Source of the DNA: Naegleria gruberi
Lineage: Eukaryota
Assembly: GCA_000004985.1 (NCBI GenBank)
Contig: GG738897.1
Length of the DNA: 64,000 bases
Direction: 5' to 3' (one strand)
This document shows positions 9,143 to 63,998 of this stretch, piece by piece; positions within the stretch are counted from its first letter, which is position 1, and each line of letters starts with the position of its first letter. The notes beneath the pieces are model-generated. The model saw only the letters and a list, made by a program, of their open reading frames with translations. It did no database searches and was not told the origin of the DNA. The translations under genes and the position numbers were made by a program.

Positions 9143-9292
9143 ATTGTATAATAAATTATTTATTTTAATAACATGCACAAGCACTTTGAAATTACAGAAC
9201 TTCAATACTATCCTAATTTATGGTACTAATTGAAACCTGAAGATTAAATGTAAATCCATTTGGCGCCAAATAATAATTAAAAAAAAGTAAAA

Positions 9293-9787
9293 ATGTCTGA
9301 TCAAGGTCCACCACAAGGAACTCAAGAATTAACTGTCTTTGTCCAAAATTTGCTCCACCAAATGGTAAGAAGATCTAGAAAATTTGTGATGATAGAGTAA
9401 TAATAATTAACGGATTTTGTTTTTTCGGAAAATTAATTTTGTGTGGATTGTATTATCAATGATTCATCAAACTATTATTTTGGATTGTTATGATTTGGAA
9501 AATAATTACTGGATAAATGATAAATAGCAAAAAAGATTCCAAGATATGTCTGATACCATTATAAAGAGGAGTATGTTTAAATTATTGTTGAATATTAATT
9601 AAACTAAATAATAATAACTAGTCGATGAAATGGGAACAAGAATCGATGACTTGGAAAAGAGTATTTCAGATCTCATGGAACAAGCCGGTAGTAAGTATTA
9701 TCACATCACACAAATATTAACAAGCACCAAGTCCCTGATGAACAACAAGGAAAGGACTCTTCCACAGATTCATCCACCAACAAATAA
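9293..9787 (+). CDS. HSBP1: Heat shock factor-binding protein 1 (HSBP1); 4 micro-exons: 9293..9364, 9528..9570, 9622..9687, 9732..9787
   Basis: Spliced product MSDQGPPQGTQELTVFVQNLLHQM|QKRFQDMSDTIIKR|IDEMGTRIDDLEKSISDLMEQAG|VPDEQQGKDSSTDSSTNK. It aligns along its whole length with the conserved HSBP1 heptad core (…[45 protein letters not shown]…). Donors are gtaaga, gtatgt and gtagta; acceptors are tag, tag and aag. Only one exon (9630..9824 ORF) appears in the track. Confidence 0.75.
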
Positions 9788-16246: not shown

Positions 16247-17223
16247 TTATTGATTCTTCTTACCATCCAAACCTAATTTAGCAAGAATATCCTTAGCTTG
16301 AGGTGGCAATTTAGAAATACCCAAATCAATGTACTTCTTAGATTGATCACAAGCAATCTTGAGAACAGAGTCAATTTCATCTTGTTTCCATTCATAAATT
16401 AATGGGAGAGTGAAGAGGACATTCAAAGCAAGATACAAGAAAGTTTCACCGGCCATCTTTTTACCCAACCAGCTGACAATGAGAACAACAACACCGAAAG
16501 CAAGGGTCTTACCCAATTCCTTACAGCTCAAAATGTCAAGATAATACTTCAAGCCAGAGTTAACGTTTGCAACGATACCAGTGACAATCTTATTGACGAG
16601 TTCTTGACTAATTTCAACATTTTGGAATGGGAAAGTATGACTATTAAAATATGTTAATATATGAATTGGCTCAAAAATAAAACTTACTTTGGATTGTTTT
16701 GAATAATTTTAAAGACAACCATGTAACCAACAGAAATGAGAACTTGAATAAAGACAACCTTGCCAATGAGGTTGACAAGTGTGAATTCATATTTGCAGAG
16801 AAGGAGGAAAAGAGCTTGAATAGCAAGGAAGACTGGGACAGTGACAAAGATATTTCTCCACATGAGAATATCAGCCAAACTTAATTGTTCAACTGGAGTT
16901 TGATCGGTTGGATTAATACTGAAAGGAAGTGGTTGTCCCTTGCTAGATCTTTTAACAGGAGTGGCAGTAAGAGTTGATGTTGGTGTTGTGGTGGCAGCAA
17001 CCTTTGGAGTAGAAGTTGTTGTTGTTGTTGGAGAAGTAGAGGCAACAACTGGTGTAACAACAGCCTTTGGTTTTTCTTCAACTACATCAGCAACAGTTTC
17101 AACAACTGGTGTGATTGTTGCAGGAACTTCTGGTGTAGTAGTAACTGGTGTTGTGGTTTCTTCAACCTTTTCATCATCATCAAGAGCAGTAAAGCTGGTT
17201 TGTTCTAATTCTTCGGCAGACAT
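16247..17223 (-). CDS. Reticulon (RHD-domain ER-shaping protein); exons 17223..16688 and 16640..16247, 47-nt intron
   Basis: The N-terminus is acidic and poly-Thr. The reticulon homology domain has two long hydrophobic hairpins (LADILMWRNIFVTVPVFLAIQALFLLL… and TLAFGVVVLIVSWLG…). Conserved blocks VISQELVNKIV and PLIYEWKQDEIDSVLKI correspond to reticulon AISEELVQKY and IYERHQAQIDHYL. Donor caaa|gtaagt, acceptor ttttaatag. Confidence 0.8.
16960..17200. repeat. Imperfect trinucleotide (GTT/GGT/AGT; ACN on coding strand) microsatellite-like tract encoding the poly-Thr/Pro/Val region of the reticulon N-terminus
   Basis: Runs such as gttgttgttgttgttgg and repeated gtagtagtaactggtgttgtgg, read directly in the sequence. 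Confidence 0.5.
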
Positions 17224-35628: not shown

Positions 35629-37087
35629 TTATTGACTGACAAGGTCGATGATTCTGTCCATTGTTTTCTTAATGCAAGGTGAATAGCTGTGGAATAATGG
35701 ATAACCATGAACATGACCATCCTCAGCAATGACAGTAACATTTGGATGTTGAGATTGTAAGAGAGAGGCAAATTGCTTATTTTCAAAAGTTACTTCTTCA
35801 TGATTACTGTAGACGATAAGCATCTTGGTGTCTTTGAAGGTTGAAATGACAGATGAATCAAAACGAATTGGAACCAATGAATCTGGAATATTTGGATATA
35901 ATTCTTCCATGATGTCAATATTATTTGGAGCTGCAATGACAGAATTTTCAATATCAAAGTGTTCTCTAAAACTCTTGACAGTAGTATCGAAGAATCCTGA
36001 TAATGTGACAGCCATGTAAGGTTGCTTTTCAATGCCGAGCTCAGCACCAATCTTGGCTAATAAATTTGCAACAACAGCTCCACCAAATGAATCACCCATG
36101 AAAACAATATCCTTTGGATCATACTTTTCAATAAGCCACTTGTAAGCATCCATACAATCTTGTAATTGTTCCTCAAAGCTTGAAGCAAATTTGGACTTAT
36201 TCTTTCTTTCTTCCTCATCCAATCCCATCAAACGATAGGCAACAGAGAAGATTGTGTGAATTGAATGATCATCTCTACCATTCAAATACTCAACCATTGA
36301 ACTAACTTGAAGACCATCACAACAATTACCAAAACCACCTCCACCATGAATATAGAACTAATCAAAGAAGGTTGTTAACAAATCAACGTTTACACATAAA
36401 AACAACATACCAAAACTTTCTTCTTATCAGGTGAATCTTTCAATTTAGCCAAAACTGAATTTCTCAAAGATGGAATTCTCTCCAATTTCAAAGTATTTCT
36501 ACTAGAAATTGGTGGGAATAGAATTTGATGTTGCATAGCCTTTCTCAATCCATACTTATCCAACAAGTGTTGTCCACTCTTGGCACTTGAAAAGGCAACA
36601 AGACTTGAAAGGGTTTGAGCCTCAATATCCAAATTAACATGAGAAGGACGAATGTAAGATCCCACATACAATAAACTTTCATTAATCTTTTTCTTTTCCT
36701 CTGCTGTACAGACTGTCATTCCAATCAACTTGTTTTTCCATACAAAGCATTGAAGAACAGATCGGAATATCATGGTAGGTGTTGATAACTTTCTAATCAT
36801 ATTGAAACAATCTTATTCTAGATGAAAACTTACCTACTATAATACAATGTTACTAAGAACAAAGATAATGATGATCCGATAAGGGAGAGTTTCAATGGTG
36901 AGGAATTCTTGAGTTGACTCTCAATCAAATCTACCAAATATTGATAACAATTCTCAGCACCACTTCCGATTGCTGATAAAGTAGTACAAGCAGCAGAAGA
37001 TGCTGATGACCATGACGCACAACCACTTGACAATTCTGCTGCAGAAGCAGTTGGTGATGAGCTATTACTAACAACTTGTTGAGACAT
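35629..37087 (-). CDS. Arylacetamide-deacetylase / hormone-sensitive-lipase-family α/β-hydrolase with N-terminal signal anchor; 3 exons: 37087..36834, 36792..36401, 36357..35629
   Basis: Exon 1 (ORF 36830..37087) reads MSQQVV…LSLIGSSLSLFLVTLYYS, ending ag|gtaagt. Exon 2 (…RKLSTPTMIFRSV…KDSPDKKKVL) ends ttg|gtatgt. Exon 3 starts FYIHGGGGFG (HGGG oxyanion motif), then the nucleophile elbow FMGDSFGGAVVANLLAK, then a DGHVHGY-type His. The overall order mirrors AADAC (TM anchor, …RRGLFYIHGGGW, GDSAGG). Introns are 41 and 43 nt. Confidence 0.7.
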
Positions 37088-43735: not shown

Positions 43736-45212
43736 ATGATATCAAATCTATGCACACAAATAATAGGAATGGAACGTGTTTTTCCAAAGTTTGCAAATGC
43801 AACCAAGTTGCACAAAACTCTCCTTCTCTCCCTTCCACATAAAGTCACTTCATTAACAAGTTCTTTGGCTGTGTTTTCAAAGCACAATGTTAATTTGATA
43901 AAGATTGAATCACGTCCTAATCGATTTGATAAGAAGGTTATTGATTTTGTTGTCAATGTTGATGAAGGAGTGAGTAAGGATATTGTTGATAGAGCCATCA
44001 AGGAAATGGTTCAAGAAAAGATTTGTGATCATGTACAATATTTGGGATTTGAAAATAAGATTCCTTGGTTCCCAACAAAGATTGCAGATATTGACCATTT
44101 CGCAAGAGAATGTCTTGAAGCTGGTGCTGTTTTGCAAGCTGATCATCCAGGTTTCCATGATCAAGGTAAGGAATTGATTTATTGACATTGTTTCTAATGT
44201 TTATCAAATCAATAGAATACAGAGATCGTAGAAAGATGATCGCAGACATTGCTTTGAATTACAAACATGGAAGTCCAATTCCACGTATTGATTACACTGA
44301 AACTGAAAATAAGACTTGGAGTATTATTTACAAGAAATTGACAGCTCTCTATCCTAAATATGCTTGCGAACAATATAACAACTTGTTCCCATTATTTGAA
44401 CAAAACTGTGGTTTCAAGGAAGATAAAATCCCACAATTACAAGATGTCAGTGACTTTTTGTTGAGCTCAACAGGTTTCAGAATTAGACCTGTCTCTGGTT
44501 TGCTCACTTCAAGAGAGTAAGTTTTCAATTTTGAAATTTTTCATCATTTAACCCAAATAGTTTCCTTAATGCTCTTGCTTTTAGAGTTTTCCACAGTACC
44601 CAATATATTAGACATCACAGTAAGCCATACTATACACCAGAACCTGATGTTGTTCACGAAATGCTTGGTCACATGCCATTATTGGCTGATTCTGATTTTG
44701 CTGAATTCTCTCAACAAATTGGTCTTGCATCTCTCGGAGCTTCCGATGAAGAAATTGACAGACTTGTTAGACTCTACTGGTACTGTCTCGAATTTGGTAT
44801 CCTCAAGGAAAACGGTTCCTTGAAGGCTTATGGTGCTGGTTTGTTAAGCTCGTTTGGTGAACTAGAATATGGTTGTTCAGGCATTGATGCAGAAACTGGA
44901 AAGAAACCAGAATATTTACCATTCGTTCCAGAAGATGCTGCTAATAGAGTTTATCCAATCACTCACTACCAACCAATCTATTATGTTGTTGAAAGCTTGG
45001 AATCATGCAAAGATTTAATTAGAAGATACGTCAACAATTCTCTCGATAGACCATTCCAACTCAAATATAATCCATACACAAGTACTGTAGATGTTTTGGA
45101 TTCTCAAGAAAAATTAATAAGCTTGACAAAAACCATTCAAAACAACATGGATCTGTTAAAGTCTTCCCTTTCAAAGATTGGTCGTTCCTATGAAATTAAC
45201 AATAAAAAATAA
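43736..45212 (+). CDS. Biopterin-dependent aromatic amino acid hydroxylase (phenylalanine-4-hydroxylase-like) with N-terminal ACT regulatory domain; exons 43736..44165, 44216..44516, 44561..45212
   Basis: ACT domain: [34 protein letters not shown]. The catalytic domain is collinear with PAH. Examples: [15 protein letters not shown]…DHPGFHDQ|[42 protein letters not shown]…[15 protein letters not shown]|[43 protein letters not shown]…[14 protein letters not shown]. This includes the Fe-binding HxxxxH…E context. Donors are g|gtaagg and ga|gtaagt; acceptors are aatag and aaatag. Confidence 0.85.
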
Positions 45213-51171: not shown

Positions 51172-52367
51172 TTAGTGCCTCATTCGTGCAAATAAAGCTG
51201 GTAAATGTGGCAATATTTCATGATAACTAATGTTACCGTCACCATCAACATCACAATCATGCAGCATTTCATCAACTAAATCTGAAATGTCTTCCTCCGA
51301 AATATCTTCATCACCATTCTTTGAGAGAGCTTCCTGCACGTCTTGCATGAAGCTTAATAGTTCATCTCTTTCAATTACACCAGATCCATCTCCATCATAA
51401 TATTCAAATATATAACGAAGTAACCTGGATTGAAGCTTCTTTTGCAGTTTGCTAACCTCTTTGGAATCAAATATTGGTGATGGAGTTTCAAAATCTTCAT
51501 CTGCTAATATCTTCATGAACAGATTGATATCTCGAAGTAAATTACCAGTAGGCCGATAATCAAAGAACCTAAAGAACAAGTCAAATTCCTTTTTCAATTC
51601 TCTTGATGTGAGATTTTCAAGAAATTGTATTTGTTCTGTCGATAAGCTTGGATTAAACACTATATAAGACTCGTCTAACTGGCCACATGAATCAATCATT
51701 TCACCTCTCATTATATTAGAACTCCAAAATAATTCAAAACTCAGTCTGTCAAACTTTTGAGCCTTAATTACATTTTGCAAGCTCTCCACCAGTGTTGTTA
51801 TACTCTCTATAGGAAAAATAGCAACAAGTATTAGTTTTAGTAACAACAATAACAAAACTTACTTTCTGTTACTTTGGTTTGACCACACATGTATAATAAA
51901 TCTCTACAAAACTTTCTCAACTCTGATGAATCTAAAAATCCACTCTTATCCCTATCATATGAATCAAATACTATCTTTGAAAGCTTCATTGATACTTCTT
52001 CCTTTGATTCATTCTGATCAAAATATGTAATGATTGAATTTACATTCTCGAATAAGTTCGTATGAACTGGCAGATCAAAAAACTTTAATATATTCTCAAA
52101 TTGCTTATTCATTTCCGCCATCTTAGTGTTCCTCCTCCTCCTTTTAATATTAAGATAACCTTTCAGTGATTCCTTTGATGTATTGAGAAGGTTTTTCTTG
52201 GCCTTATTTATATTTACATAAGGCGTTGTACTCGATTTTATAGGAGAGACCGTTGTTGAATTGTCGCTAACTTTTGTTGATGATGAGAAGAATGTCCTCA
52301 CTGATGATGAATTCGAAGAGGAGGACACGGAATTTCCACAAGATATAGATGAGCAAATTCCCCCCAT
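51172..52367 (-). CDS. EF-hand calcium-binding protein (≥3 EF hands); exons 52367..51863 and 51806..51172, 56-nt intron
   Basis: The N-terminus MGGICSS… looks like a myristoylation/palmitoylation site. EF loops are DRDKSGFLDSSEL, DGDGSGVIERDEL and DVDGDGNISYHEI. Exon 1 ends …GQTKVTE(a)|gtaagt. The acceptor cctatag gives …K SITTLVESLQNVIKAQKFDRLSFELF…. Confidence 0.75.
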
Positions 52368-53039: not shown

Positions 53040-54080
53040 ATGACGACGAATAACCAATCGATGGCAATGTATTCCTCTGCTACTCAGCAACAGGATACAA
53101 ATGGCCAACAACAACAAGATGGTAAAAACGGTGCAAATTATAATACAAACCGATTAAACGCTAGACAACAGATGAATATTGGAGTTTTAAAGAGAAAAGA
53201 TAAATTTATTACGACAATACACTCGACCTTTGATCATGTAGTATTTTACAAGTTTCAAGATGATTCATGGGATAAATTGGAAGTAGAAGGAGCCATGTTT
53301 ATTGTAGAGAGAAACGAACCAAAATTTCCCAAGTATCGTATTGTAGTGATGAATAGAAAGAGTAGTGATGATTTTCGTCAAGATATTACAAAGGATTTAG
53401 AATTGGAAGTCCATCACCCATATGTATTCTATAGAACCAAAGGTCGTATTATCAAGGGAATTTGGTTCTACAAATCTTTGCAATGTATTGAATTTAATGA
53501 CCTCATCGTTTCGTTGAAAGAAAAGGCCTATGGAAAGACGGAACCAGAAAGCAAACAATCAAATACTTTTGTACAACCACCAACTACTTTGCAACCATCT
53601 CCTCTAATTAATTACCATCCAAACCATGCTGATTCAATTTATCATCCATCATCACAATCCCATCAAATTAATCATCATCAAAACGATTCACAACCATCAT
53701 CAGATGCTTCATCTTTACTTAAGAATATGCTAGGAATTGGAGGTGTAACAGGATTACCACCAGTTGAAAATGGTTCCTTTAATCCATCATCTGCAATGGA
53801 CGGAAATAATTATCTAGATGAAGAATCACTTATCAGAGAACACTTTTTCAACTCTAGTGCCAATCAACAAGTTTCTACTGTGGTTGAACCAGAATATTCA
53901 TCTGTGTTATCTCAAGAGTGTGTTCAACAATTCGGAAAGAGGAAGTTTGTCACTAAGGAAATGTTCATCAATCAGCTCATGTTCACACTAGAATCTAACA
54001 AGGACTTTTCCGATGCTTGCTACAATCAATATTGCCAATTTCTAGCTGATGAAAATAAACAATCAGGAAATAGGTGCTAG
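53040..54080 (+). CDS. DCP1: mRNA-decapping enzyme subunit 1 (Dcp1, EVH1/PH-like domain)
   Basis: ATG at 53040. After a Q-rich N-terminus comes the Dcp1 EVH1 core: VVFYKFQDDSWDKLEVEGAMFIVERNEPKFPKYRIVVMNRKSSDDFRQDITKDLELEVHHPYVFYRTKGRIIKGIWFY. This corresponds to the conserved W-x-K-x-x-EG-x-LF…NR…G-IW-FY pattern. A short 3' exon cannot be excluded. Confidence 0.75.
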   Translation: MTTNNQSMAMYSSATQQQDTNGQQQQDGKNGANYNTNRLNARQQMNIGVLKRKDKFITTIHSTFDHVVFYKFQDDSWDKLEVEGAMFIVERNEPKFPKYRIVVMNRKSSDDFRQDITKDLELEVHHPYVFYRTKGRIIKGIWFYKSLQCIEFNDLIVSLKEKAYGKTEPESKQSNTFVQPPTTLQPSPLINYHPNHADSIYHPSSQSHQINHHQNDSQPSSDASSLLKNMLGIGGVTGLPPVENGSFNPSSAMDGNNYLDEESLIREHFFNSSANQQVSTVVEPEYSSVLSQECVQQFGKRKFVTKEMFINQLMFTLESNKDFSDACYNQYCQFLADENKQSGNRC

Positions 54081-54260
54081 ATATATAGGTAAAATAATTT
54101 ACAATTTCTTCTTCTCCAATAATGATGATTATTATCTTATCCTATTCATCATTATTAATTCAACAACTTCTAACACCAAGATAACCAACAGTTCTCTGCA
54201 AATCTCAAAGTCCTCCTCCATCGAAGTGCGATCCTGATGAAAAAAGGCTTGTGAAAAAAA

Positions 54261-56120
54261 ATGTCATTCAAAACAACAACAGCTTCATCATCATCGTGTT
54301 CATCATCTGATGGTGGTGTGGTATCATCATTGATGAATATGAGTGTTTTTACTTTTGGACAATATGCCATCTATACCGTGATTGGTTATATGGTTATTAA
54401 ATTTATTTATAAATTAATATTTGGAAGAAGTTACATGTGGAAGCAAGTTAAACCATTCGATACTAAGAAACGTCTTTCAACACCACTTCAAGAATGGGTT
54501 GCTACAACAAGAAAGAATCCACAAGGAAGACAAATGATTCCTTGTACTAATCCAGGAACAGGTGAAGAATTATGTGATCCTGTACCAGCAATGAATACTC
54601 AAGATGTTGAAGAAAGAATTTCCTCTGCTAAGAAGGCTTTTGAAGGTTGGTCCAAGACATCATTTGAGGATAGAAAGAGAGTACTCTTGCATTTGTTGGA
54701 CAATATCTTGAAACACAAACATGAAATTGTTGCCAAGAGTTGTAAAGATACTGGTAAGACAATGTTTGAAGCTCATTTGGGTGAAGTTGTCATGACTTGT
54801 GAAAAGATTAGATGGTTAACTACTAGAGGTGAACAATTCCTTTCACCTGAAACTAGACATGTTCCATTAATGATGATTTACAAAGTTGCCACAGTTCAAT
54901 ATTTACCATTGGGTGTTATTGGTATGATTGTTCCATGGAATTATCCTTTCCAAAATGCTATCAATGCTATTATTGCTGCTCTATTTGCTGGTAACTCTGT
55001 TGTTATTAAGGTTAGTGAATGGGCTACTTGGTCAAGTGTTGAATTATATGAACATTTAGTTCAAGATGCTTTAATTAAGGCTGGTTTCTCTCCAGATACT
55101 GTTCAATTCATTGTTGGTTTTGGTGAAGCTGGTAATGCTCTTGCTAAATCAAAGAATACTAGTCACGTTTTCTTTATTGGTTCTCCTGAAATCGGAAAGA
55201 AGGTCATGATGGCTGCCACTGAAAATTTGACACCTGTTACATTGGAATTGGGAGGCAAGGATCCATTCATTGTTTGTGAAGATGCTAACGTTGATATTGC
55301 TGTTGATGTTGCTATTAGAGCTTCTCTTTACAATTGTGGCCAAAATTGTATTGCTGCTGAAAGATTGTACGTTCATGAAAAGATTCATGACAAGTTTGTT
55401 GCTAAGGCAGTTGAACTTATGAAATCACTCAGACAAAGACCAACCTGTACTAAGGATTGTGCTCTTGAACCAGAAGAAATTAACGATATTGGTGCCATGA
55501 CCATGTCAACATCTATTGAAAAGATTGAAAAAGTCATTCAAGATGCTGTTAAGGGAGGTGCTAAGCTCGTTCTTGGTGGTAAGAGAAATCCAAATTTGAA
55601 GGGTCAATTCTTGGAACCAACTCTCCTCACTGAAGTTAAGAATGATATGAATGTTGTTCAAGATGAAGTTTTTGGACCAGTTGTCACTATTGTCAAGTGG
55701 AAGGATGAAGAAGAAGTCATTGGAATGGCTAATAGTACTTGTTATGCTCTTGGTTCATATGTATTTGCTGGTGATCAAAAGCGTGCTGAAAGAATTGGTA
55801 ACCGTCTCGTTGCTGGTTTGACCATGGTTAATGACTATGGTTTGAGCTACTTGATTCAAGATTTGCCATTCGGTGGTGTTAAGGTTTCTGGTTTTGGTAG
55901 ATTCAATGGTCCAGAAGGTCTCCGTGCTTTCACTATCCAAAAGAGTTTCGTTACTAACAGATTCCCAATTGATATGCCTCCACCAAAACTTATTAGATAC
56001 CCAACTGAAGGTTATGCTCATATGGTTGTTGCTCACTTGGTTGACTTCTTATATGGTCCATGGACTGGTACTGTTGGTTCTCTCTTCCGTTTAGTTGGAG
56101 CTTTAATGGGAAAGAAATAA
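54261..56120 (+). CDS. Aldehyde dehydrogenase family protein with ~100-aa N-terminal extension containing a TM helix (Msc7-like)
   Basis: ATG at 54261. TM helix VFTFGQYAIYTVIGYMVIKFIYKLIFG. ALDH motifs are ELGGKDPFIV (catalytic Glu) and NCGQNCIAAER (catalytic Cys). GxGxxG-like FIGSPEIGKKV. Single exon. Confidence 0.85.
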   Translation: MSFKTTTASSSSCSSSDGGVVSSLMNMSVFTFGQYAIYTVIGYMVIKFIYKLIFGRSYMWKQVKPFDTKKRLSTPLQEWVATTRKNPQGRQMIPCTNPGTGEELCDPVPAMNTQDVEERISSAKKAFEGWSKTSFEDRKRVLLHLLDNILKHKHEIVAKSCKDTGKTMFEAHLGEVVMTCEKIRWLTTRGEQFLSPETRHVPLMMIYKVATVQYLPLGVIGMIVPWNYPFQNAINAIIAALFAGNSVVIKVSEWATWSSVELYEHLVQDALIKAGFSPDTVQFIVGFGEAGNALAKSKNTSHVFFIGSPEIGKKVMMAATENLTPVTLELGGKDPFIVCEDANVDIAVDVAIRASLYNCGQNCIAAERLYVHEKIHDKFVAKAVELMKSLRQRPTCTKDCALEPEEINDIGAMTMSTSIEKIEKVIQDAVKGGAKLVLGGKRNPNLKGQFLEPTLLTEVKNDMNVVQDEVFGPVVTIVKWKDEEEVIGMANSTCYALGSYVFAGDQKRAERIGNRLVAGLTMVNDYGLSYLIQDLPFGGVKVSGFGRFNGPEGLRAFTIQKSFVTNRFPIDMPPPKLIRYPTEGYAHMVVAHLVDFLYGPWTGTVGSLFRLVGALMGKK

Positions 56121-56186: not shown

Positions 56187-59100
56187 TTATTTTGAATTAG
56201 ATGTTGGTTGAGTTGGCAATACAATTTGAACTCCATGATCTTTCAAATATTTCAGACAGTGCTCAGCTATTGTTTGAGTTGCCTTAGAATCAACCTGATT
56301 GCAATAATCGAAAATTAATTTGACATCATCCAAGTTATCACATTTCACAGCAATCAAATAAGCTGCTTTGAATCTATTACACAACAAACAAGCTCTAACC
56401 TTCTTGGAATCGTTTCTCAATTTTGCAATAAATTTTTCTGCATTCTTTTCATCATTCATTTCCTTAATATAAAGTTTGATAATATTATTAATGATTGCAT
56501 CCCAATCTTCATCACTAATTGGAGTTCCTCTAATTTGTTTCAATAAATTTTCTATAATTGCTATTTGCTTCTTTCTCACAAGACTACACAGAGTACGAAT
56601 ATATAGCTTGACCATTGGTAAATGGAACTCAGATGCAATTCTAAATGATAAATCAAATGACTGCAACATTAAAAATTCAGTTATTTCACATTTTCCTTTA
56701 ACTGCATCAAATAGAGTAATCTTAGTGTTAGGAGTTGATGGACTCATGACATTTCCAAACTTTTTTGTGACTTCTGTTTGTAAATTGATAGTTTTGACAT
56801 ATCTTGAAATTTCATCAGGTTTTAACACTTGCTTTTGAACATCATTTTCTGTAGAACTATTTTGAAGCCCAGTCATGAAATGTTTCTTTGCACCTTCCAA
56901 GTGGGAGAGTTGTTGATTTTGATCATCAGTCTTTAAGAATAATCTAATCTTGGTCAAACCAGCTCTGATGTTATCATCCATAAAAACTTGGAAATCATAG
57001 AGCAAGTTGAGTGCTTGTTTTTGATTCAAATATTTACAAGTGGCAGTGAGATATGGATAACACTTTGTAAAGGTAGTGTCATATTGTTTGATTACATTTT
57101 GTAAGAATTTCATCAATCCATATTTAACACAATATGTTACAATTACATCCACAAAAAGAGATTGAGACATTTGTTTCTTGAAAAGATAAAGAATAGCAGC
57201 ATCTAATTTTCCATTTCTAACCAGGAATGAAATGTAAATATCACTCGAACCAAAGTGTTTGATATAGTACTGGGCCTCTCTCATTCTTTCTTCATCGAGA
57301 TGAGTGTGAAGTTGTGACTTTTCAACTTGTTCAATACTTATAGAGGCTCTTTTCTTTGATGGACTGTTACCAGGTGAGTCCAATACAGATTCTTTCAACT
57401 TGTCTCCCATTTTCTGATCAACTGCAACTACAGATGGAGCTCCTTCGAGAATAGCCAATATTCTATTAAGAAGTTGTTGTTTTTGCTGAGGAGTGAGAGT
57501 AAGGCAATATTTGAGTTTGTCTCGGGCTTGTTTGTACTTTCCTAAAGTTAAAAGGGTAATACCCCATTGAGTCCAAATAGGATCAGATTCGATTTGACAT
57601 CTGGTAGCAACATTCAATGCTAAATTCAAATGGTCAAGTTGAATTAGACTGTCACGAATTTGTCTGGCTCTATTTTGTTGACTTAAATCACTTAGAGAAA
57701 TACTTCCAATGGCACAATTATGATAAATAATTTGCTTTAAAATTTCCACATGAGAAAGGATAGTATCACATAAACCTAATCTTTCATGAGATTCCGTATC
57801 CTTACTGAAACAAATTTTAGCATATCTGACAATTTGACCAACCAGACTGATTCTGTTCGTTCTTGAAATATGTTGGGTTTTGCTGATTTCATCACAGAGC
57901 GTCAAGATGGAATCTCCAACCTTTCTATTATTCTTGCAAATATCCAAGATTGACTTGGCTAGCAGAATACTAGGAGCTTGAGGGAAGGAAAAATTGATTC
58001 TAATATTGTTGTTGTGCTCCTCATTATTGAGAGTGAAAACACGAGAAGAGGATTTCTTCTTTGTGGTATCTGTTTGTTCAAAATTCTTTAAGGACAATGC
58101 TTTCATACCATATTCAATCAGCAAGTCGTCGTTTTGAAGTTCTGGTAATTCGTTGAGTATTCTTGAAACTTTCAACATTTCATTATTGATAATTAAATTT
58201 TCAATTATCAGTGATGGTTTCAAAAGTAGGTGATTATACTTTTTCTTATTTTCCTCATCTAAAAGTTTTAAAACTCTCATACCCATCAAGCTAGCAGTAT
58301 ATTGTTCCAATTGATCCTTTTTGAGATGTTCCTTGTATACTGAGAGAATAAATTCACAAACAAATAGCTTATTCTCATAAATTTCCAACTTTTCCAAAAC
58401 ATGTTTGCAAACAGAAAGAGCATTTTCAGGACTGAGTCTGGATAAAGCTTGTGTCACTTTGCTTATAATCTTGTCTGTAATTGCTTTTTCTCCCAAAATA
58501 TAAAGACAATATTCTTGTTCTATGTGTATCATGACAGAATCATAGCCCTCACCAATATTCATTGGGGTGGAGGTAGAAAGAAGATTCTTGGCAGCTCTTC
58601 TAGCAAGATCAAACTCACACACTGTAATCAAATCAGAAATAAATCTGTATGGATTATGATCGCAAATTTCTTTCATCTCAGTCCATGAATCATAGTTATC
58701 TCTTAGCTCACTGCTGAGGACCTCCTTGAAAATGTGTAACCTTTCCAAAACCTTACTGGCTCTTTCGTAGATTTTTTGTTTTGTTTTATCACTTCTAAAA
58801 GTACTGCAACATGATCTGATAAGTTCAATGCAAACTTCAATATCCCATTCATCCATATAAATTTCAATTAAAGAAAATGCAAGCTCCTTATCCTTGATAT
58901 TATAAATGTACTTGTGACATTCAGAGTGGTCAGGCATATTTTCAATATAAAGTTTTAACAGAAAATCAGGTGTAAAGTGAGTAAGACCTTTCTCAGCCAT
59001 TTCCAATGCAAGATTGTAATCGTCAGCATCTATCAAGTTTTGAATGATAGCAAGATACAGTGAGTCTGCTTGATCTGACTCAAAACTTGAAATGGTATAC

Positions 59101-62100
59101 TTTTTGAGGTTTCTTGAGAGGTCAAGTCGTTTAGATAATTGAATGGCATCTTTTACAGGTTCTAGCTTAATAGCCATCCATCTATTCATCACTTCACTAT
59201 TCTGGCATTGACTTTCTATAAACTCTAGGAACTGTGGATTCATCTTGGAGTAATCAGCAAAGTATAAAGAGGACAAAGCTCCCACTAACGAAGATTTTTG
59301 AGATATTATCTTTGCTAAATCTAGTGAAATACTCAAATCATTCGATTTTGATATTTTAGATTGTGAAGCTGACTCTAAGATAAATGATAAAATGTGAATA
59401 CCATTGAGATCAGCTAACTTTGACGCCTTTTCATCTAGAAAAAATTAATAATCATTGGTAAAATAGTCAAATTACGTACAATTTCCTTCTTCAAAGAGAG
59501 TTTCTGATAAAATTTGGGCTAATCCTCTCTTAAATAATGTAAATACTGATGTATTACTCTTCTCATTCAAAATTTCCTTGTTTTTCAAAAGGTTTGATAA
59601 GAGTTGTGAAATATAATCATATCTTTCGTTTCCATGTCTTAACTCTTCTATCAGTTCTGAAATATCCTTACTTTCGAATCCTCTGTTATCATAAATACAT
59701 AAATCTTTTAGAGAGGTTGATTTTGTTTTTTCTACCTCTATGTACTTTCTCAAAATTTCGATATTATCCTCACGATTGTAATTGAATAGTTTGGAATATA
59801 CTCTGAATATTGGTCCTTGATATGGTGAATCCAAATACATTGCAAACAAATCAAGTAGAGGAATACCAGGTTTGAGCTCTTTGATTTTTTCTATGAGTAC
59901 GCCATGTAGTTCCTTGTTTTCAGTCTTTAAAGAAAAGAGCACATCAAAAAGTGTTATAAAATTAGGGAATTTTTGAATAATCTCACCAACACTCTTATCC
60001 TTATGTTCATTATGAATGGTATACATTATTTCAGCATCTATTACTTGATTCTTGAATGATTCACCAAGATTAAATCTTGTAATGACTTCCTTTGCCTGAG
60101 AGAAAAGATTTCTCTTAATGCAAATAACAAAAAGTGTGTTAGGGGAAGCGGTCCACATTTGCACAAATTGGTGTTGCTTGTAGGAACTATTGAGAGAATT
60201 TCTATCAAACTCGGAAATCATTCTTGTCAAACTAAATCTCCACAATGCTTCATCGAGTATTTTGACGAATCTTTCGATTCTAAAAACCATTCTCTCATCT
60301 TTACTCGACTGTTGTAATAGTTCTGTGGCTGTCTTTAAGAAAACCAGCATATCATGTAAATTATTTGGTGAAATGACAAATACAGAATTATTGTCTGTAT
60401 GACCCTTGATATGTGATGATTTTGTTAAAATAATTTGGAAAATATTCTCCAAAGTACTGAGCCTGTAGGATTCACTTGATATATTTACAATGCTGTCTTC
60501 AATGCTCTTCAAGGAGTCTAGAATGGATGTTGATTTGTTTCTTACTATTTGTATTGCTTCGTGAATAGCAAAATAAGCTCTCAACAAAGTCAAATCGATA
60601 TTTCTCTCATTTTCTGTCGTTTCACGCAGCTGAGGTCTTTTCTTTAAAAGAGAAACCAAATCATTTTCTTTCAAATTACCCAGCCATGGCAGAAGTAAAT
60701 TAAGAGTGCTTTGACTTGGAGCCAAATCTATTAATAAATTGGCAATTTCTTTCTTGTTTGTAAACTTAAAGTCATTTTCAGCCAATTTCTTCATCTTGAC
60801 CGACTTGATAAGATCTCTACTATGTTTCTTTTCAATAGTATTCATAGATCTATTGGCCTCTAAAAGAAGTTCAGATGCATCCAAAGAAAAGTCCAAAAAG
60901 AATGCAAGTTCATTACATGTAAACTCTACCCATGGATCAGAAATTGGGGTTCTTTTTTGTTTTCCTTGAATCCAAATATTTTGGATGATATTATGTCGTT
61001 CAGTAATGTCAGACTTGTAATTATCCCAGCTTAATAAAATTATAAGAGGCCTCATGTTTGAAAAGTTTTCTTGATCCAAAAGAATATTCAGTGAGGCATA
61101 GTCTTTCTTAGCAACGAGATCCAGTGCTAAATTGAGCCCAGATTCTAAAATATGATTATTAGTAACTCGAATATATTCCATATAGTGAAACCAAAAACTT
61201 TGAGATGAAGGAGAAGCTTGTATAATATCAATTAATTTTTGTTTTGATAACAACTCCTCATCCAAAGATGTGAAAATTCTAGTTAATTTGAATTGTTCAT
61301 CACTATATTCCTTGTCTGAAATATCAGCAATAAATAATGACTCGTAAATGATATCAATTAATTGATTATTTGGTCTAGACTTTAGAGCTATAGCCTTATT
61401 TTCAATTAATTGTTTAAAAATGTTTTTCAATAAATAAATCGACTCTGAATCCATAGTAATTTGTTTAGATATGAAACGAAGCATATAGGAAGCTTTTTCA
61501 TAATCTCTATCATTACACAAATTTTCTAACTTTTCTATTAAAATACTTTTTCCATTAATAAACTCAAATGCATTCCTCTCTAAATAGAAAGCTAGAAATG
61601 GACATTTTTCATACATTTCTCCAATTAAATCCATGATAGAACTATCCATATTTTGTGAAAATGTTAACCCAGTTGATGATAATGTTGTTATTACAGTCTC
61701 TGTTGTTGACTTCTTTTTTGATAATAACCTAAATGAATAAATATATTTCATATGCCTGACAAGCTCTTTAGAAAATTTATCCGATAATTTAAAAGTATTT
61801 ACACAACAATCCAATAATGTTTCAAAAGATATTACATCAATATTATAACCTTTTAGGCTTGAATTATTGGTCAGTTGTTGTAACTCGGTATATACACAAT
61901 AACAAAACCACTTAAATCTACTAGTGACGTGAGGATTTTTGGGATCCTTCAATTCTTCAATACAGTGATTAAGAATAAACAATGTATCCGACTCTGATAC
62001 AGTTTTAAAGTAATCAATAAAAAGTGCTCTTGCCAATTCATATTCATGAGTAGCAAGAAAGTTTAGTAAACATGTTCTCATCTTGACATTTTCTTTATCA

Positions 62101-62231
62101 GAGAGGAAGGGATACAAATGATGATGTTGTTGCTCTTCCGATGATGTGATGATCGGTTGCTGATGTATCACGGAAAGATTTTTAATTTCACTCATTTTTT
62201 TGTTGTGTGATTTTTTGTCTTGAAAATCCAT
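56187..62231 (-). CDS. Giant (~2,000 aa) α-helical scaffold protein of unknown function; exons 62231..59480 and 59434..56187 joined by a 45-nt intron
   Basis: Track ORFs 59472..62237 (GTG start; first ATG at 62229-62231) and 56187..59336 (TTG start) are in different frames. The donor aatt|gtacgt at 59479 and acceptor ttttttctag at 59435 join them as …LFEEGN|Y|EKASKLADLNGIHILSFILESASQSKISKSNDLSISLDLAKI…. The sequence is uniformly helical with no catalytic motifs. Conserved-looking C-terminal blocks (LVRNGKLDAAILYLF, LYDFQVFMDDNIRAGLTKIRLF) are reminiscent of large vesicle-trafficking scaffolds such as spatacsin or spastizin, but there is no FYVE finger. Confidence 0.55.
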
Positions 62232-62326
62232 CAACACAGAGAGAAAATCTAATAGCAGTAGATGCTTGAATGTGTTATGAAGGTGTTGGAGTAATTGCTT
62301 TTGTTGAGTAATTCAATGCTCATGGT

Positions 62327-63998
62327 TTATTGATTTGAAGAATTCTGGAGCTTTTGACTATTTTGTCTGGAGAGAACGGCAGGTCTGAAATTTGAGTTGA
62401 CCACTTGATGAACCTCCTTGGTGTGGAATTTTTGTTGTTTTTCTAGAGCTTTTGCCGATATTATTAGCTGTTGTTTAGGTGCAAGTAAATTATTCGTGAG
62501 GTCCACAGCATCTATTGGATGACTTTCCTTGATGAGTGAGGAAAGAGTGTGAAGATATCTTTTCTTTACAATGGATTCCTTTTCTTGGAAGAACATTGGA
62601 TTGTAAATGGTGTTCATGAGCTTTTCTTCACTTTCTCTGACTTTAAGTTGAAAGTTTTTAAAATTCAAATAGTCAAGATTTTGTCTCATATTCACCAACT
62701 CCAATCTGTCAACGTGATCAGTATTAGTTGGAGCTCCTCTTGAAGAAAAAGGGGCCATTCTAGAAGCTCTTCTTTGTGGGCTCTTTGTTGGTAGCTCTCC
62801 TGTATTCTTAATCTTTTCCTCTAGATCCTTTGCATATGTCTCAAAGCTCAAAATATCGTTTTGCATCTTTTCAATAGCTTCTAAGTAAACATTCTCTTCA
62901 CTCATGGCAAGTTCATATTTTTCTCTAAATCCTTCCAAGTCTCTCAACTTTTGAGTAAGTTTCTTGAATTCCTCATCCTTGTCATTTGACTCGGCTAAAC
63001 TCTTTTCCAATTCATCTTTTTGCTCAAGAGTTTTTCTAAGTTTAAGTTCAATTTCTTCAAGGGTTCTTTTCAAAGACTGGTTTTCTTTTTCCACCTTCTC
63101 CATTGAAGGTCTCATGTTCTCGTAAATGGATAAGTCTTTCTTCACAGAGATTAATCTTTCCTCAAATGTGTCCTTTAGAGATTCTCTATTTTTTGGATTC
63201 ATGATCATCTCCTCACAAAAAGAGTTCAACTCCTCGCATAGACCTCCAATAAATTGATTAGGTATGTAGAACGTATCTGAATCATCTCCTATGGAAACTA
63301 ATCTTAGTACTTCCTCGTGAGGCATTCCCAAAGCAGCCACAAATAAATTAGAAGATTGTCTAAATGAAATATCAGCAAACATATGAGACGGTATATAATT
63401 AAATTCAGTTGCCTTTTCACTCATTATGCTTTGAACTCTAATCAATTGGCTTTCATGCAAATCCATGTAGTAAGTATAAACATATCCCATCTTGGTGTTC
63501 TTTGATAAAAGGGCTTCGTAATAAATTAAAGAAATAAAGAATAATTGTTCGCATAAATTATGAAACTTTTCGTTGCATACTATTTGAGGGGTTTCGGTTA
63601 ATAACTTTTGAATTATTCTACAATTTTGGTTCAAGCTTTCAAATTCTGCTTGTGAGGCAATCAAGTTTGAAGAAATCTGCTTTACAACTGGAAGTACTCT
63701 TTCTTTTTCTGGTAAAATCTTCTCAATCAAAACCTGAATTGAGGTAAACAACTCAAGTATTGTTGAAATCATCATTATCATTCCTTCTAAAATACAAGAA
63801 TATCCACTAATAATGTGAGAAATACCAACACAAATAATCAAACACATACCTATTCTGCCTGCTGATCGAATCTATCTCCTGTACAAGGTTTGTCAAAATA
63901 AACGAAATTGTCACAGTATTTTCATTGGAAAAATCTTCTGTTAAATCATCTCTTTTGAGAACCTCTAAAAATCTATCCGCTACGTTATCTAGTTCCAT
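62327..63998 (-). CDS. Coiled-coil protein (N-terminal globular region, central coiled coil, basic C-terminus); exons 63998..63850 and 63806..62327; may extend beyond the window end
   Basis: Exon 1 ORF 63807..63998 (MELDNVADRFLEVLKR…SISRQN) ends ag|gtatgt. The acceptor cattattag joins to SGYSCILEGMIMM… of ORF 62327..63847, whose listed start is a non-ATG. The central region has strong heptad character (EKVEKENQSLKRTLEEIELKLRKTLEQKDELEKSLAE…). Confidence 0.55.

What the first reader, a model, noticed from the sequence alone, without database searches (positions are those of the whole stretch)
56187..62231. Giant ~2,000-aa helical protein encoded by two long ORFs stitched by a 45-nt GTACGT…TAG intron
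The track shows two adjacent minus-strand ORFs of 921 and 1,049 aa, both with non-ATG starts and in different frames. A GTACGT donor two codons before the first ORF's stop and a ttttttctag acceptor 45 nt downstream join them in frame, giving a roughly 6-kb coding sequence.

The protein is entirely α-helical repeat-like, with no enzymatic motif and no FYVE finger. Its C-terminal conserved blocks are faintly reminiscent of spatacsin/spastizin-type AP-5-associated scaffolds. Its identity is open, and it is the largest gene in the window.
Basis: inference. Interest (0 to 1): 0.55.

Follow-up and report, generated by a model that had tools for sequence, protein, structure and literature searches.

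The report
Naegleria spastizin (SPG15) gene, FYVE-less
The two long reading frames are one Naegleria gruberi gene, split by a 45-base intron, that encodes the amoeba's version of spastizin (SPG15/ZFYVE26), a known helical scaffold of the AP-5 vesicle coat; it is an ordinary, already catalogued gene, although the public gene model for it is wrong in two places.

Summary
Two minus-strand ORFs (59472..62237 and 56187..59336) are joined in frame by a 45-nt GTACGT…TTTTTTCTAG intron (59479..59435). This gives a 1999-aa protein from ATG 62231.

The window is Naegleria gruberi. N. fowleri has an intron at the same codon and phase, and the tyrosine made by the splice is conserved in many orthologues.

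The protein is the spastizin/SPG15/ZFYVE26 orthologue, not spatacsin:
- Pfam TPR_ZFYVE26 scores 102 bits against a cut-off of 27.
- Human ZFYVE26 (PDB 8yad_C) matches at E=8e-67 in four collinear stretches spanning both ORFs.

The FYVE finger is really absent, replaced by a 57-aa cysteine-free loop. This is normal outside animals: every named FYVE-less orthologue in my sample was from amoebae, metamonads, euglenozoans or plants, and every named FYVE-bearing one was an animal.

Hirst et al. 2011 already listed an N. gruberi SPG15, so the identity is not open.

New here:
- The public 1885-aa model uses a 237-nt intron that deletes 64 conserved residues.
- It also starts 50 codons too late.

Function as an AP-5/SPG11 scaffold is inferred, not shown.

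The parts
59480..62231 (-). Exon 1, codons 1-917 plus the first base of Tyr918. The start is taken as the first ATG of the ORF (62231). ATG 62195 (Met13, A-rich context AAAAAAATGAGT) is an equally plausible start and aligns with the N. fowleri 'MS...' start.
   Evidence: ORF1 alone hits the human ZFYVE26 N-terminal region at E=7.4e-5
59435..59479 (-). 45-nt spliceosomal intron, phase 1: GTACGT donor, T-rich tract, TAG acceptor, 22% GC.
   Evidence: homologous-position intron in N. fowleri; the junction residue is conserved across the family
56187..59434 (-). Exon 2: the last two bases of Tyr918, codons 919-1999 and the stop (56189-56187).
   Evidence: no insertion relative to N. fowleri, so no hidden in-frame intron
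59480..59671 (-). 192 coding nt (64 aa, SKDISELIEELRHGNERYDYISQLL...ETLFEEGN). The public N. gruberi model P0001 wrongly treats them as part of a 237-nt intron (59671..59435, donor GTAAGG).
   Evidence: The frame is open over 64 codons (36 of 20000 shuffles). 27 of 65 residues are identical to N. fowleri (the 64 deleted residues plus the junction Tyr918). The segment aligns to conserved blocks in about 30 orthologues.
58005..58175 (-). The 'FYVE slot', aa 1338-1394: a 57-aa segment with no Cys and one His, at the position where animal orthologues carry the FYVE zinc finger. Part of it is modelled as a low-confidence loop.
   Evidence: the human FYVE (1806-1873) lies in disordered linkers 1738-1908 (bioRxiv 10.1101/2024.06.14.598999)
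56250..56615 (-). C-terminal ZFYVE26-like TPR domain (Pfam PF25569), aa 1858-1979.
   Evidence: E=2.7e-29, 102.4 bits against a cut-off of 27, with full profile coverage (2-123 of 123)

Best explanation
This is a single protein-coding gene of Naegleria gruberi with two exons and one 45-nt intron. It encodes a protein of about 1999 aa (1987 aa if Met13 is the start) that is the orthologue of spastizin (SPG15/ZFYVE26).

Shown here: the gene structure, membership of the family, the all-helical solenoid fold, and the absence of the FYVE zinc finger.

Inferred from work on the human and Arabidopsis proteins: the protein pairs side by side with spatacsin (SPG11) to form an arched alpha-solenoid scaffold. 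That scaffold carries the AP-5 adaptor complex on late endosomal or lysosomal membranes and helps retrieve or re-form membrane there.

The Naegleria protein has no FYVE finger. The PI3P docking that is essential for the human protein therefore cannot be made by this subunit. Membrane recruitment must rely on other determinants, such as curvature sensing by the SPG11-SPG15 arch, a small GTPase of the Rag type, or another subunit. Which one is unknown.
For: Organism:
- A 100%-identical N. gruberi protein and a 62%-identical N. fowleri orthologue covering 98% of the query.
- The aldehyde dehydrogenase and DCP1 neighbours are syntenic.

Splice:
- Covered.

Family:
- PF25569 at 102 bits against a cut-off of 27.
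- phmmer against PDB sequences: 8yad_C, human ZFYVE26, E=8.2e-67, with four collinear stretches (query 336-407, 669-726, 1088-1337 and 1388-1981 against human 309-379, 805-862, 1459-1691 and 1915-2524).
- ORF1 alone still picks 8yad_C as its top hit at E=7.4e-5.
- 1302 homologues in the representative library.

FYVE absent:
- No PF01363 hit, while the Drosophila control scores 72 bits.
- No R[RK]HHCR motif.
- A custom FYVE HMM gives E=6.5.
- The slot has 0 Cys.

Partners in the same genome:
- Hirst 2011 supplement lists N. gruberi SPG15, SPG11 (XP_002682129.1), beta5 and mu5.

FYVE-less orthologues and AP-5:
- Arabidopsis AT2G25730 co-purifies with AP-5 (bioRxiv 10.1101/2022.08.31.505729). I did not test AT2G25730 itself for FYVE. 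The three plant orthologues I did test lack it.
Against: - No RNA-seq or EST evidence was available for the junction or the start codon.
- Foldseek against PDB missed 8yad_C even for the C-terminal model.
- Function, partners and localisation in Naegleria are untested.
- In human cells an intact FYVE is required for recruitment (R1836A is cytosolic; PMC7814351). A FYVE-less protein may therefore behave differently.
- I found no conserved basic patch or other substitute in the slot.
- I could not confirm that the JGI model listed by Hirst 2011 (248187, scaffold_53) is this exact locus. That is an inference from there being one SPG15-like gene.
Confidence: 0.88

Rival explanations
1. The public gene model is right. 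The intron is 237 nt (59671..59435, donor GTAAGG) and the protein is 1885 aa starting at ATG 62081. Alternatively, both donors are used as alternative isoforms.
For: This is the deposited N. gruberi prediction (P0001). It uses the same acceptor, and GTAAGG is an acceptable donor.
Against: - The extra 192 nt are an open frame. Only 36 of 20000 shuffles keep it open.
- They encode 64 aa that align with N. fowleri (27 of 65 identical when the junction Tyr918 is counted) and with conserved blocks in about 30 orthologues.
- The N. fowleri intron sits at the 45-nt site.
- The residues upstream of Met51 ('YPFL..EN.K') are conserved in N. fowleri.
Confidence: 0.06
2. There are two separate genes, or an operon-like pair, and the GT...AG pair is coincidental.
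For: Each ORF is long on its own. No transcript data are available.
Against: - ORF2 has no ATG at its start.
- Both ORFs map collinearly onto single-chain orthologues from animals, amoebae, plants and metamonads.
- A conserved motif spans the junction.
- The intron position is conserved in N. fowleri.
Confidence: 0.02
3. The gene is a pseudogene or carries an assembly frameshift. On this reading the 45 nt are damaged coding sequence, not an intron.
For: A frame change with stops in both frames could also come from an indel.
Against: - The splice signals are canonical and the tract is T-rich.
- The 45 nt have 22% GC against 31% in the flanking exons.
- Removing exactly these 45 nt gives a gap-free alignment with N. 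fowleri and the family.
- Both exons are otherwise intact over 6 kb.
Confidence: 0.02
4. The protein is spatacsin (SPG11), or an unrelated alpha-solenoid such as a nucleoporin, an IFT-A subunit or a HOPS subunit, rather than spastizin.
For: - Foldseek returns generic solenoids: IFT-A, Ski3, Vps16 and Nups.
- One orthologue is mislabelled 'Nup85' in GenBank.
Against: - There is no Spatacsin_C hit at E<=1.
- Among all PDB chain sequences the only significant match was ZFYVE26.
- The specific PF25569 domain is present with full coverage.
- Hirst 2011 assign a different N. gruberi protein (XP_002682129.1) to SPG11.
Confidence: 0.01

Closest known systems
Human spastizin / SPG15 / ZFYVE26 (PDB 8yad chain C; SPG11-SPG15 and AP5:SPG11-SPG15 cryo-EM, bioRxiv 10.1101/2024.06.14.598999)
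   Same: - Collinear homology along the whole length (E=8e-67).
- C-terminal TPR_ZFYVE26 domain.
- SPG11 and AP-5 subunits are reported in the same genome (Hirst 2011).
   Different: - About 540 residues shorter.
- The FYVE finger with its roughly 170-aa disordered linkers (human 1738-1908) is replaced by a 57-aa Cys-free segment.
- The N-terminal half is very divergent.
Naegleria fowleri FDP41_010912 (P0002, 2026 aa)
   Same: - 62% identity over 98% of the length; 81-92% in most of the last 600 aa.
- Same FYVE-less slot (58 aa).
- Same intron position and phase.
- Same downstream neighbours.
   Different: - N. fowleri has three further short introns that N. gruberi lacks.
- The upstream neighbour differs.
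FYVE-less SPG15 orthologues of plants and amoebae (for example Arabidopsis AT2G25730, Selaginella, Diphasiastrum, Polysphondylium, Balamuthia, Mastigamoeba, Anaeramoeba, Entosiphon)
   Same: - Same architecture: a long solenoid, a Cys-poor slot of 52-181 aa and the PF25569 C-terminus.
- The Arabidopsis member co-purifies with AP-5.
   Different: - Naegleria has one of the shortest slots.
- Identity in the C-terminal region is only 25-32%.
Spatacsin / SPG11
   Same: It is also a protein of more than 2000 aa that is largely alpha-solenoid, and it is a partner in the same coat.
   Different: - This protein has no Spatacsin_C domain.
- It gave no significant match to any other PDB chain sequence.
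- The literature assigns a separate N. gruberi gene to SPG11.

Membership tests
Spastizin / SPG15 / ZFYVE26 orthologue group | C-terminal ZFYVE26-like TPR domain (Pfam PF25569) above the curated cut-off | tested here: met
   102.4 bits against a cut-off of 27, E=2.7e-29, profile positions 2-123 of 123, at aa 1858-1979
Spastizin / SPG15 / ZFYVE26 orthologue group | Collinear full-length homology to an experimentally characterised member (human ZFYVE26) | tested here: met
   phmmer E=8.2e-67 with four collinear stretches covering both ORFs. ORF1 alone gives E=7.4e-5. The N-terminal half is weak.
Spastizin / SPG15 / ZFYVE26 orthologue group | Fold of the solved SPG15 alpha-solenoid | tested here: met
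   [not shown]
Spastizin / SPG15 / ZFYVE26 orthologue group | FYVE zinc finger that binds PI3P. It gives the animal protein its name. My survey shows it is a feature of the animal members and does not define the orthologue group. | tested here: not met
   - No PF01363 hit, while the Drosophila control is positive at 72 bits.
- No R[RK]HHCR motif.
- A custom FYVE HMM gives E=6.5.
- The slot has 0 Cys.
- The same absence is seen in 22 other long orthologues, from Amoebozoa, Metamonada, Euglenozoa and plants where named.
- All named FYVE-bearing members are Metazoa.
Spastizin / SPG15 / ZFYVE26 orthologue group | Co-occurrence with SPG11 and AP-5 subunits in the same genome | not tested
   Taken from the literature only. 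Hirst 2011 supplement lists N. gruberi SPG11 (XP_002682129.1), beta5 (XP_002677583.1), mu5 (XP_002677485.1) and SPG15 (JGI 248187).
Spastizin / SPG15 / ZFYVE26 orthologue group | Physical complex with SPG11 and AP-5, and late endosome/lysosome localisation | not testable with these tools
   Shown for human and Arabidopsis, not for Naegleria.
Spatacsin / SPG11 | Spatacsin_C domain and sequence homology to SPG11 | tested here: not met
   No Spatacsin_C hit at E<=1. ZFYVE26 was the only significant match among all PDB chain sequences.
Spliceosomal intron (Naegleria type) | GT...AG boundaries that restore the frame, with a position shared with an orthologue | tested here: met
   GTACGT...TAG, 45 nt, phase 1. 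N. fowleri has GTAAGT...CAG, 43 nt, at the same codon and phase. Transcript evidence was not available.

The most novel reading that the evidence does not exclude
The FYVE finger of spastizin may be an insertion acquired in the animal (or holozoan) lineage. On this reading the ancestral AP-5/SPG11/SPG15 coat, still present in Naegleria, amoebae, metamonads, euglenozoans and plants, is recruited to membranes without any intrinsic PI3P-binding finger in SPG15. Naegleria carries close to the minimal version, a 57-aa loop. The PI3P/FYVE docking model drawn from human cells would then be a lineage-specific add-on, and the ancestral docking mechanism would remain unidentified.
Probability: 0.55. Interest if true: 0.4.

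Novelty: already known. Interest (0 to 1): 0.2.

Why it matters
For the genome scan this finding is resolved as an ordinary gene. It is the Naegleria orthologue of the hereditary-spastic-paraplegia protein spastizin, which was already in the 2011 AP-5 comparative table.

Two modest points have practical value:
- The deposited N. gruberi protein is mis-modelled. It lacks 64 conserved internal residues and about 38-50 N-terminal residues. This would degrade alignments, phylogenies and structure predictions that use it.
- The current mechanistic model makes the SPG15 FYVE-PI3P contact essential for coat recruitment. In my sample FYVE occurs only in animal orthologues. Non-animal systems such as Naegleria, Dictyostelium relatives and plants are therefore the place to look for the ancestral, FYVE-independent recruitment signal. 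I found no paper in the searchable library that states this, but I cannot claim it is unpublished.

Tried and rejected
- **afdb50** was not available.
- **The search for homologous proteins** with a C-terminal profile and with the junction segment returned almost nothing, because of the word index. The exhaustive representative search replaced them.
- **Exact look-ups** failed. I therefore could not tie the window to JGI scaffold_53 directly.
- **A substitute membrane-binding element in the FYVE slot** (polybasic patch) was not found. Net charge ranges from -14 to +9 among FYVE-less orthologues, with no conserved basic cluster.
- **Alternative in-frame acceptors** for the 59479 donor (59414, 59375, 59369) were rejected, because they would delete the conserved EKASKLADLNGIHIL block.
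- **Hidden in-frame introns** were rejected. There is no insertion of 13 residues or more relative to N. fowleri inside the ORFs.
- **Non-coding features** were absent. There are no Rfam families and no tandem repeats in the region.
- **Literature searches** for a statement that non-animal SPG15 lacks FYVE found none.
Full report
**What is in the sequence**

The window has about 33% GC throughout. The region holds two long minus-strand ORFs in different frames. One is 59472..62237 (921 aa, GTG as the first start-like codon). The other is 56187..59336 (1049 aa, TTG).

Read on the minus strand, the boundary is ...GAA GAA GGA AAT T|GTACGTAATTTGACTATTTTACCAATGATTATTAATTTTTTCTAG|AT GAA AAG GCG.... 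ORF1's stop is TAA at 59474-59472. ORF2's frame is closed upstream by TAA at 59447-59445. The GT at 59479 and the AG at 59435 are the nearest possible sites flanking those two stops.

Removing the 45 nt between them joins the frames through a split TAT (Tyr) codon. The product is a 6000-nt CDS of 1999 codons from the first ATG (62231), with one terminal stop.

**Source organism and comparative support for the splice**

A protein search returned a 100%-identical 'predicted protein [Naegleria gruberi]' of 1885 aa (P0001). It also returned a 2026-aa Naegleria fowleri protein that is 62% identical over 98% of the query (P0002).

The N. fowleri locus (L001) has the same downstream neighbours, aldehyde dehydrogenase and DCP1, in the same relative orientation. 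Mapping P0002 back onto its DNA shows four introns. The first reads GAA GAT T|GTAAGT...TATCAG|AT GTC. It is 43 nt, phase 1, and lies inside the Tyr codon that aligns with N. gruberi Tyr918.

The pairwise protein alignment runs through the junction without a gap...SETLFEEGNYEKASKLADLNGIHIL against ...SELVFENEDYVTAQKLSEENRIHLL. In a 36-sequence family alignment the junction Tyr and the surrounding F-x7-A[ES]xxA motif recur in Balamuthia, Anaeramoeba, Polysphondylium, Pelomyxa, Mastigamoeba and several unnamed sequences.

No insertion relative to N. fowleri suggests a further hidden intron in N. gruberi. Other candidate introns in the window have the same form, 44-56 nt with GTAAGT/GTATGT...TAG (unverified). 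No transcript data were available, so the splice rests on comparative evidence. That evidence is strong.

**The public model is wrong in two places**

P0001 reads ...NRGFE|N|EKASKL.... It uses a donor at 59671 (GTAAGG) with the same acceptor, giving a 237-nt intron. The additional 192 nt behave as coding sequence:
- They are open in frame. Only 36 of 20000 shuffles of the segment stay open.
- With the junction Tyr918 counted, 27 of 65 residues are identical to N. fowleri.
- They align to conserved blocks in the family.

P0001 also starts at Met51 (ATG 62081). The residues just upstream (YPFLSDKENVK against YPFLYENENEK) are conserved in N. fowleri. The true start is either ATG 62231 or ATG 62195. 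The latter has an A-rich context and aligns with the N. fowleri 'MS' start.

**Identity of the protein**

- Pfam gives one significant domain, PF25569 'ZFYVE26-like, TPR repeats', at aa 1858-1979. It scores 102.4 bits against a cut-off of 27 and covers the whole profile.
- Against all PDB chain sequences, the only significant hit is 8yad chain C, human ZFYVE26, at E=8.2e-67. Four collinear stretches span both ORFs.
- ORF1 alone still selects 8yad_C as its best hit, at E=7.4e-5.
- An exhaustive HMMER search with a C-terminal profile found 1302 homologues at E<=1e-3.
- An AlphaFold model of aa 951-1999 built on 35 homologues has mean pLDDT 85 and is entirely helical.
- There is no Spatacsin_C hit, so this is spastizin and not spatacsin.

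**The missing FYVE finger**

In human SPG15 the FYVE domain (1806-1873) sits in a disordered insertion (1738-1908) between two solenoid segments (bioRxiv 10.1101/2024.06.14.598999). In N. gruberi the flanking blocks (...LIIENLIINNEM and IRINFSFPQAPS...) are 57 residues apart. That segment has no Cys and one His.

Three tests agree that FYVE is absent:
- Pfam finds no FYVE, while it finds one at 72 bits in the Drosophila orthologue used as a control.
- There is no R[RK]HHCR motif.
- An HMM built from 80 orthologue FYVE segments gives no hit, E=6.5.

This is not peculiar to Naegleria. Of 76 homologues of at least 1700 aa, 52 carry the motif and 24 do not. In the 35-sequence alignment, FYVE-less slots are 52-181 aa with 0-1 Cys, and FYVE-bearing slots are 99-398 aa with 8-14 Cys.

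The named sequences split cleanly by lineage:
- Named FYVE-less members are Balamuthia, Polysphondylium, Pyxidicula, Pelomyxa, Mastigamoeba, two Anaeramoeba species, Entosiphon, Selaginella, Diphasiastrum and Tanacetum.
- All named FYVE-bearing members are animals.
- A rough neighbour-joining tree of the C-terminal region puts all FYVE-bearing sequences in one cluster.

**How it most likely works**

The steps in this section are inferred. In human cells SPG15 and SPG11 pair in parallel to form a W-shaped arch. AP-5 attaches through the SPG11 N-terminus. The FYVE domain docks the assembly on PI3P membranes, and the arch also senses curvature. An R1836A FYVE mutant is cytosolic, and recruitment also needs Rag GTPases (PMC7814351).

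Hirst et al. 2011 list N. gruberi orthologues of SPG15, SPG11, beta5 and mu5 (PMC3191125 supplement). In Arabidopsis the SPG15 homologue AT2G25730 co-purifies with AP-5.

I therefore take the Naegleria protein to be the SPG15 scaffold subunit of an AP-5/SPG11/SPG15 coat. Its membrane recruitment must be independent of an SPG15 FYVE finger. I looked for a conserved basic patch in the slot as a substitute and found none.

**Novelty and verdict**

The identity of the gene is already in the literature: an N. gruberi SPG15, JGI 248187 on scaffold_53, in Hirst 2011. I could not map that model to this window directly.

The finding is therefore an ordinary, known gene. Their tentative family guess is right for spastizin and wrong for spatacsin.

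The only mildly interesting residue is the pattern that FYVE is confined to animal orthologues. I did not find this stated in the papers I could search. If it holds up, it makes the ancestral recruitment mechanism of this coat an open question.

Noticed in passing
window 59480-59671 and 62082-62231 (minus strand): The deposited N. gruberi protein (P0001, 1885 aa) omits 64 conserved internal residues by using a 237-nt intron (donor 59671). It also starts at Met51 (ATG 62081), although the upstream residues are conserved in N. fowleri.
   Followed up: yes
L001 about 9212-9257 and 9480-9543, plus one further site in the last third of the gene: The N. fowleri orthologue has three additional short GTAAGT introns. 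N. gruberi lacks them and has an uninterrupted ORF at the homologous positions. This is intron gain or loss between the two species.
   Followed up: partly
window 44517-44560 (+), 44166-44215 (+), 16641-16687 (-), 51807-51862 (-), 36358-36410 (-): Other candidate 44-56-nt GTAAGT/GTATGT...TAG introns join adjacent ORFs in frame. This suggests several more split genes in the window. None was verified.
   Followed up: no
window 62327-63847 (-): A 506-aa ORF lies directly upstream, about 95 nt from the spastizin start. It looks coiled-coil-like and has no Pfam hit. It is not the upstream neighbour in N. fowleri, where a Peptidase_C97 gene sits instead.
   Followed up: partly
window 53040-56120 (+); L001 12305-15279: Aldehyde dehydrogenase (54261-56120) and DCP1 (53040-54080) lie downstream, convergent with the spastizin gene. 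The same pair is syntenic in N. fowleri. Only 66 nt separate the two convergent stop codons.
   Followed up: partly
window 51172-51855 (-): An EF-hand protein ORF has a TTG 'start' and a candidate 56-nt intron just upstream (51862-51807). It is probably another two-exon gene.
   Followed up: no
[not shown]
   Followed up: no
homologue P0028 (Balamuthia mandrillaris KAL6058640.1): This clear ZFYVE26-family protein (PF25569 at 86 bits, no FYVE) is labelled 'Nuclear pore complex protein Nup85' in GenBank, which is an annotation error. Several FYVE-less orthologues are also named 'zinc finger FYVE domain protein'.
   Followed up: partly
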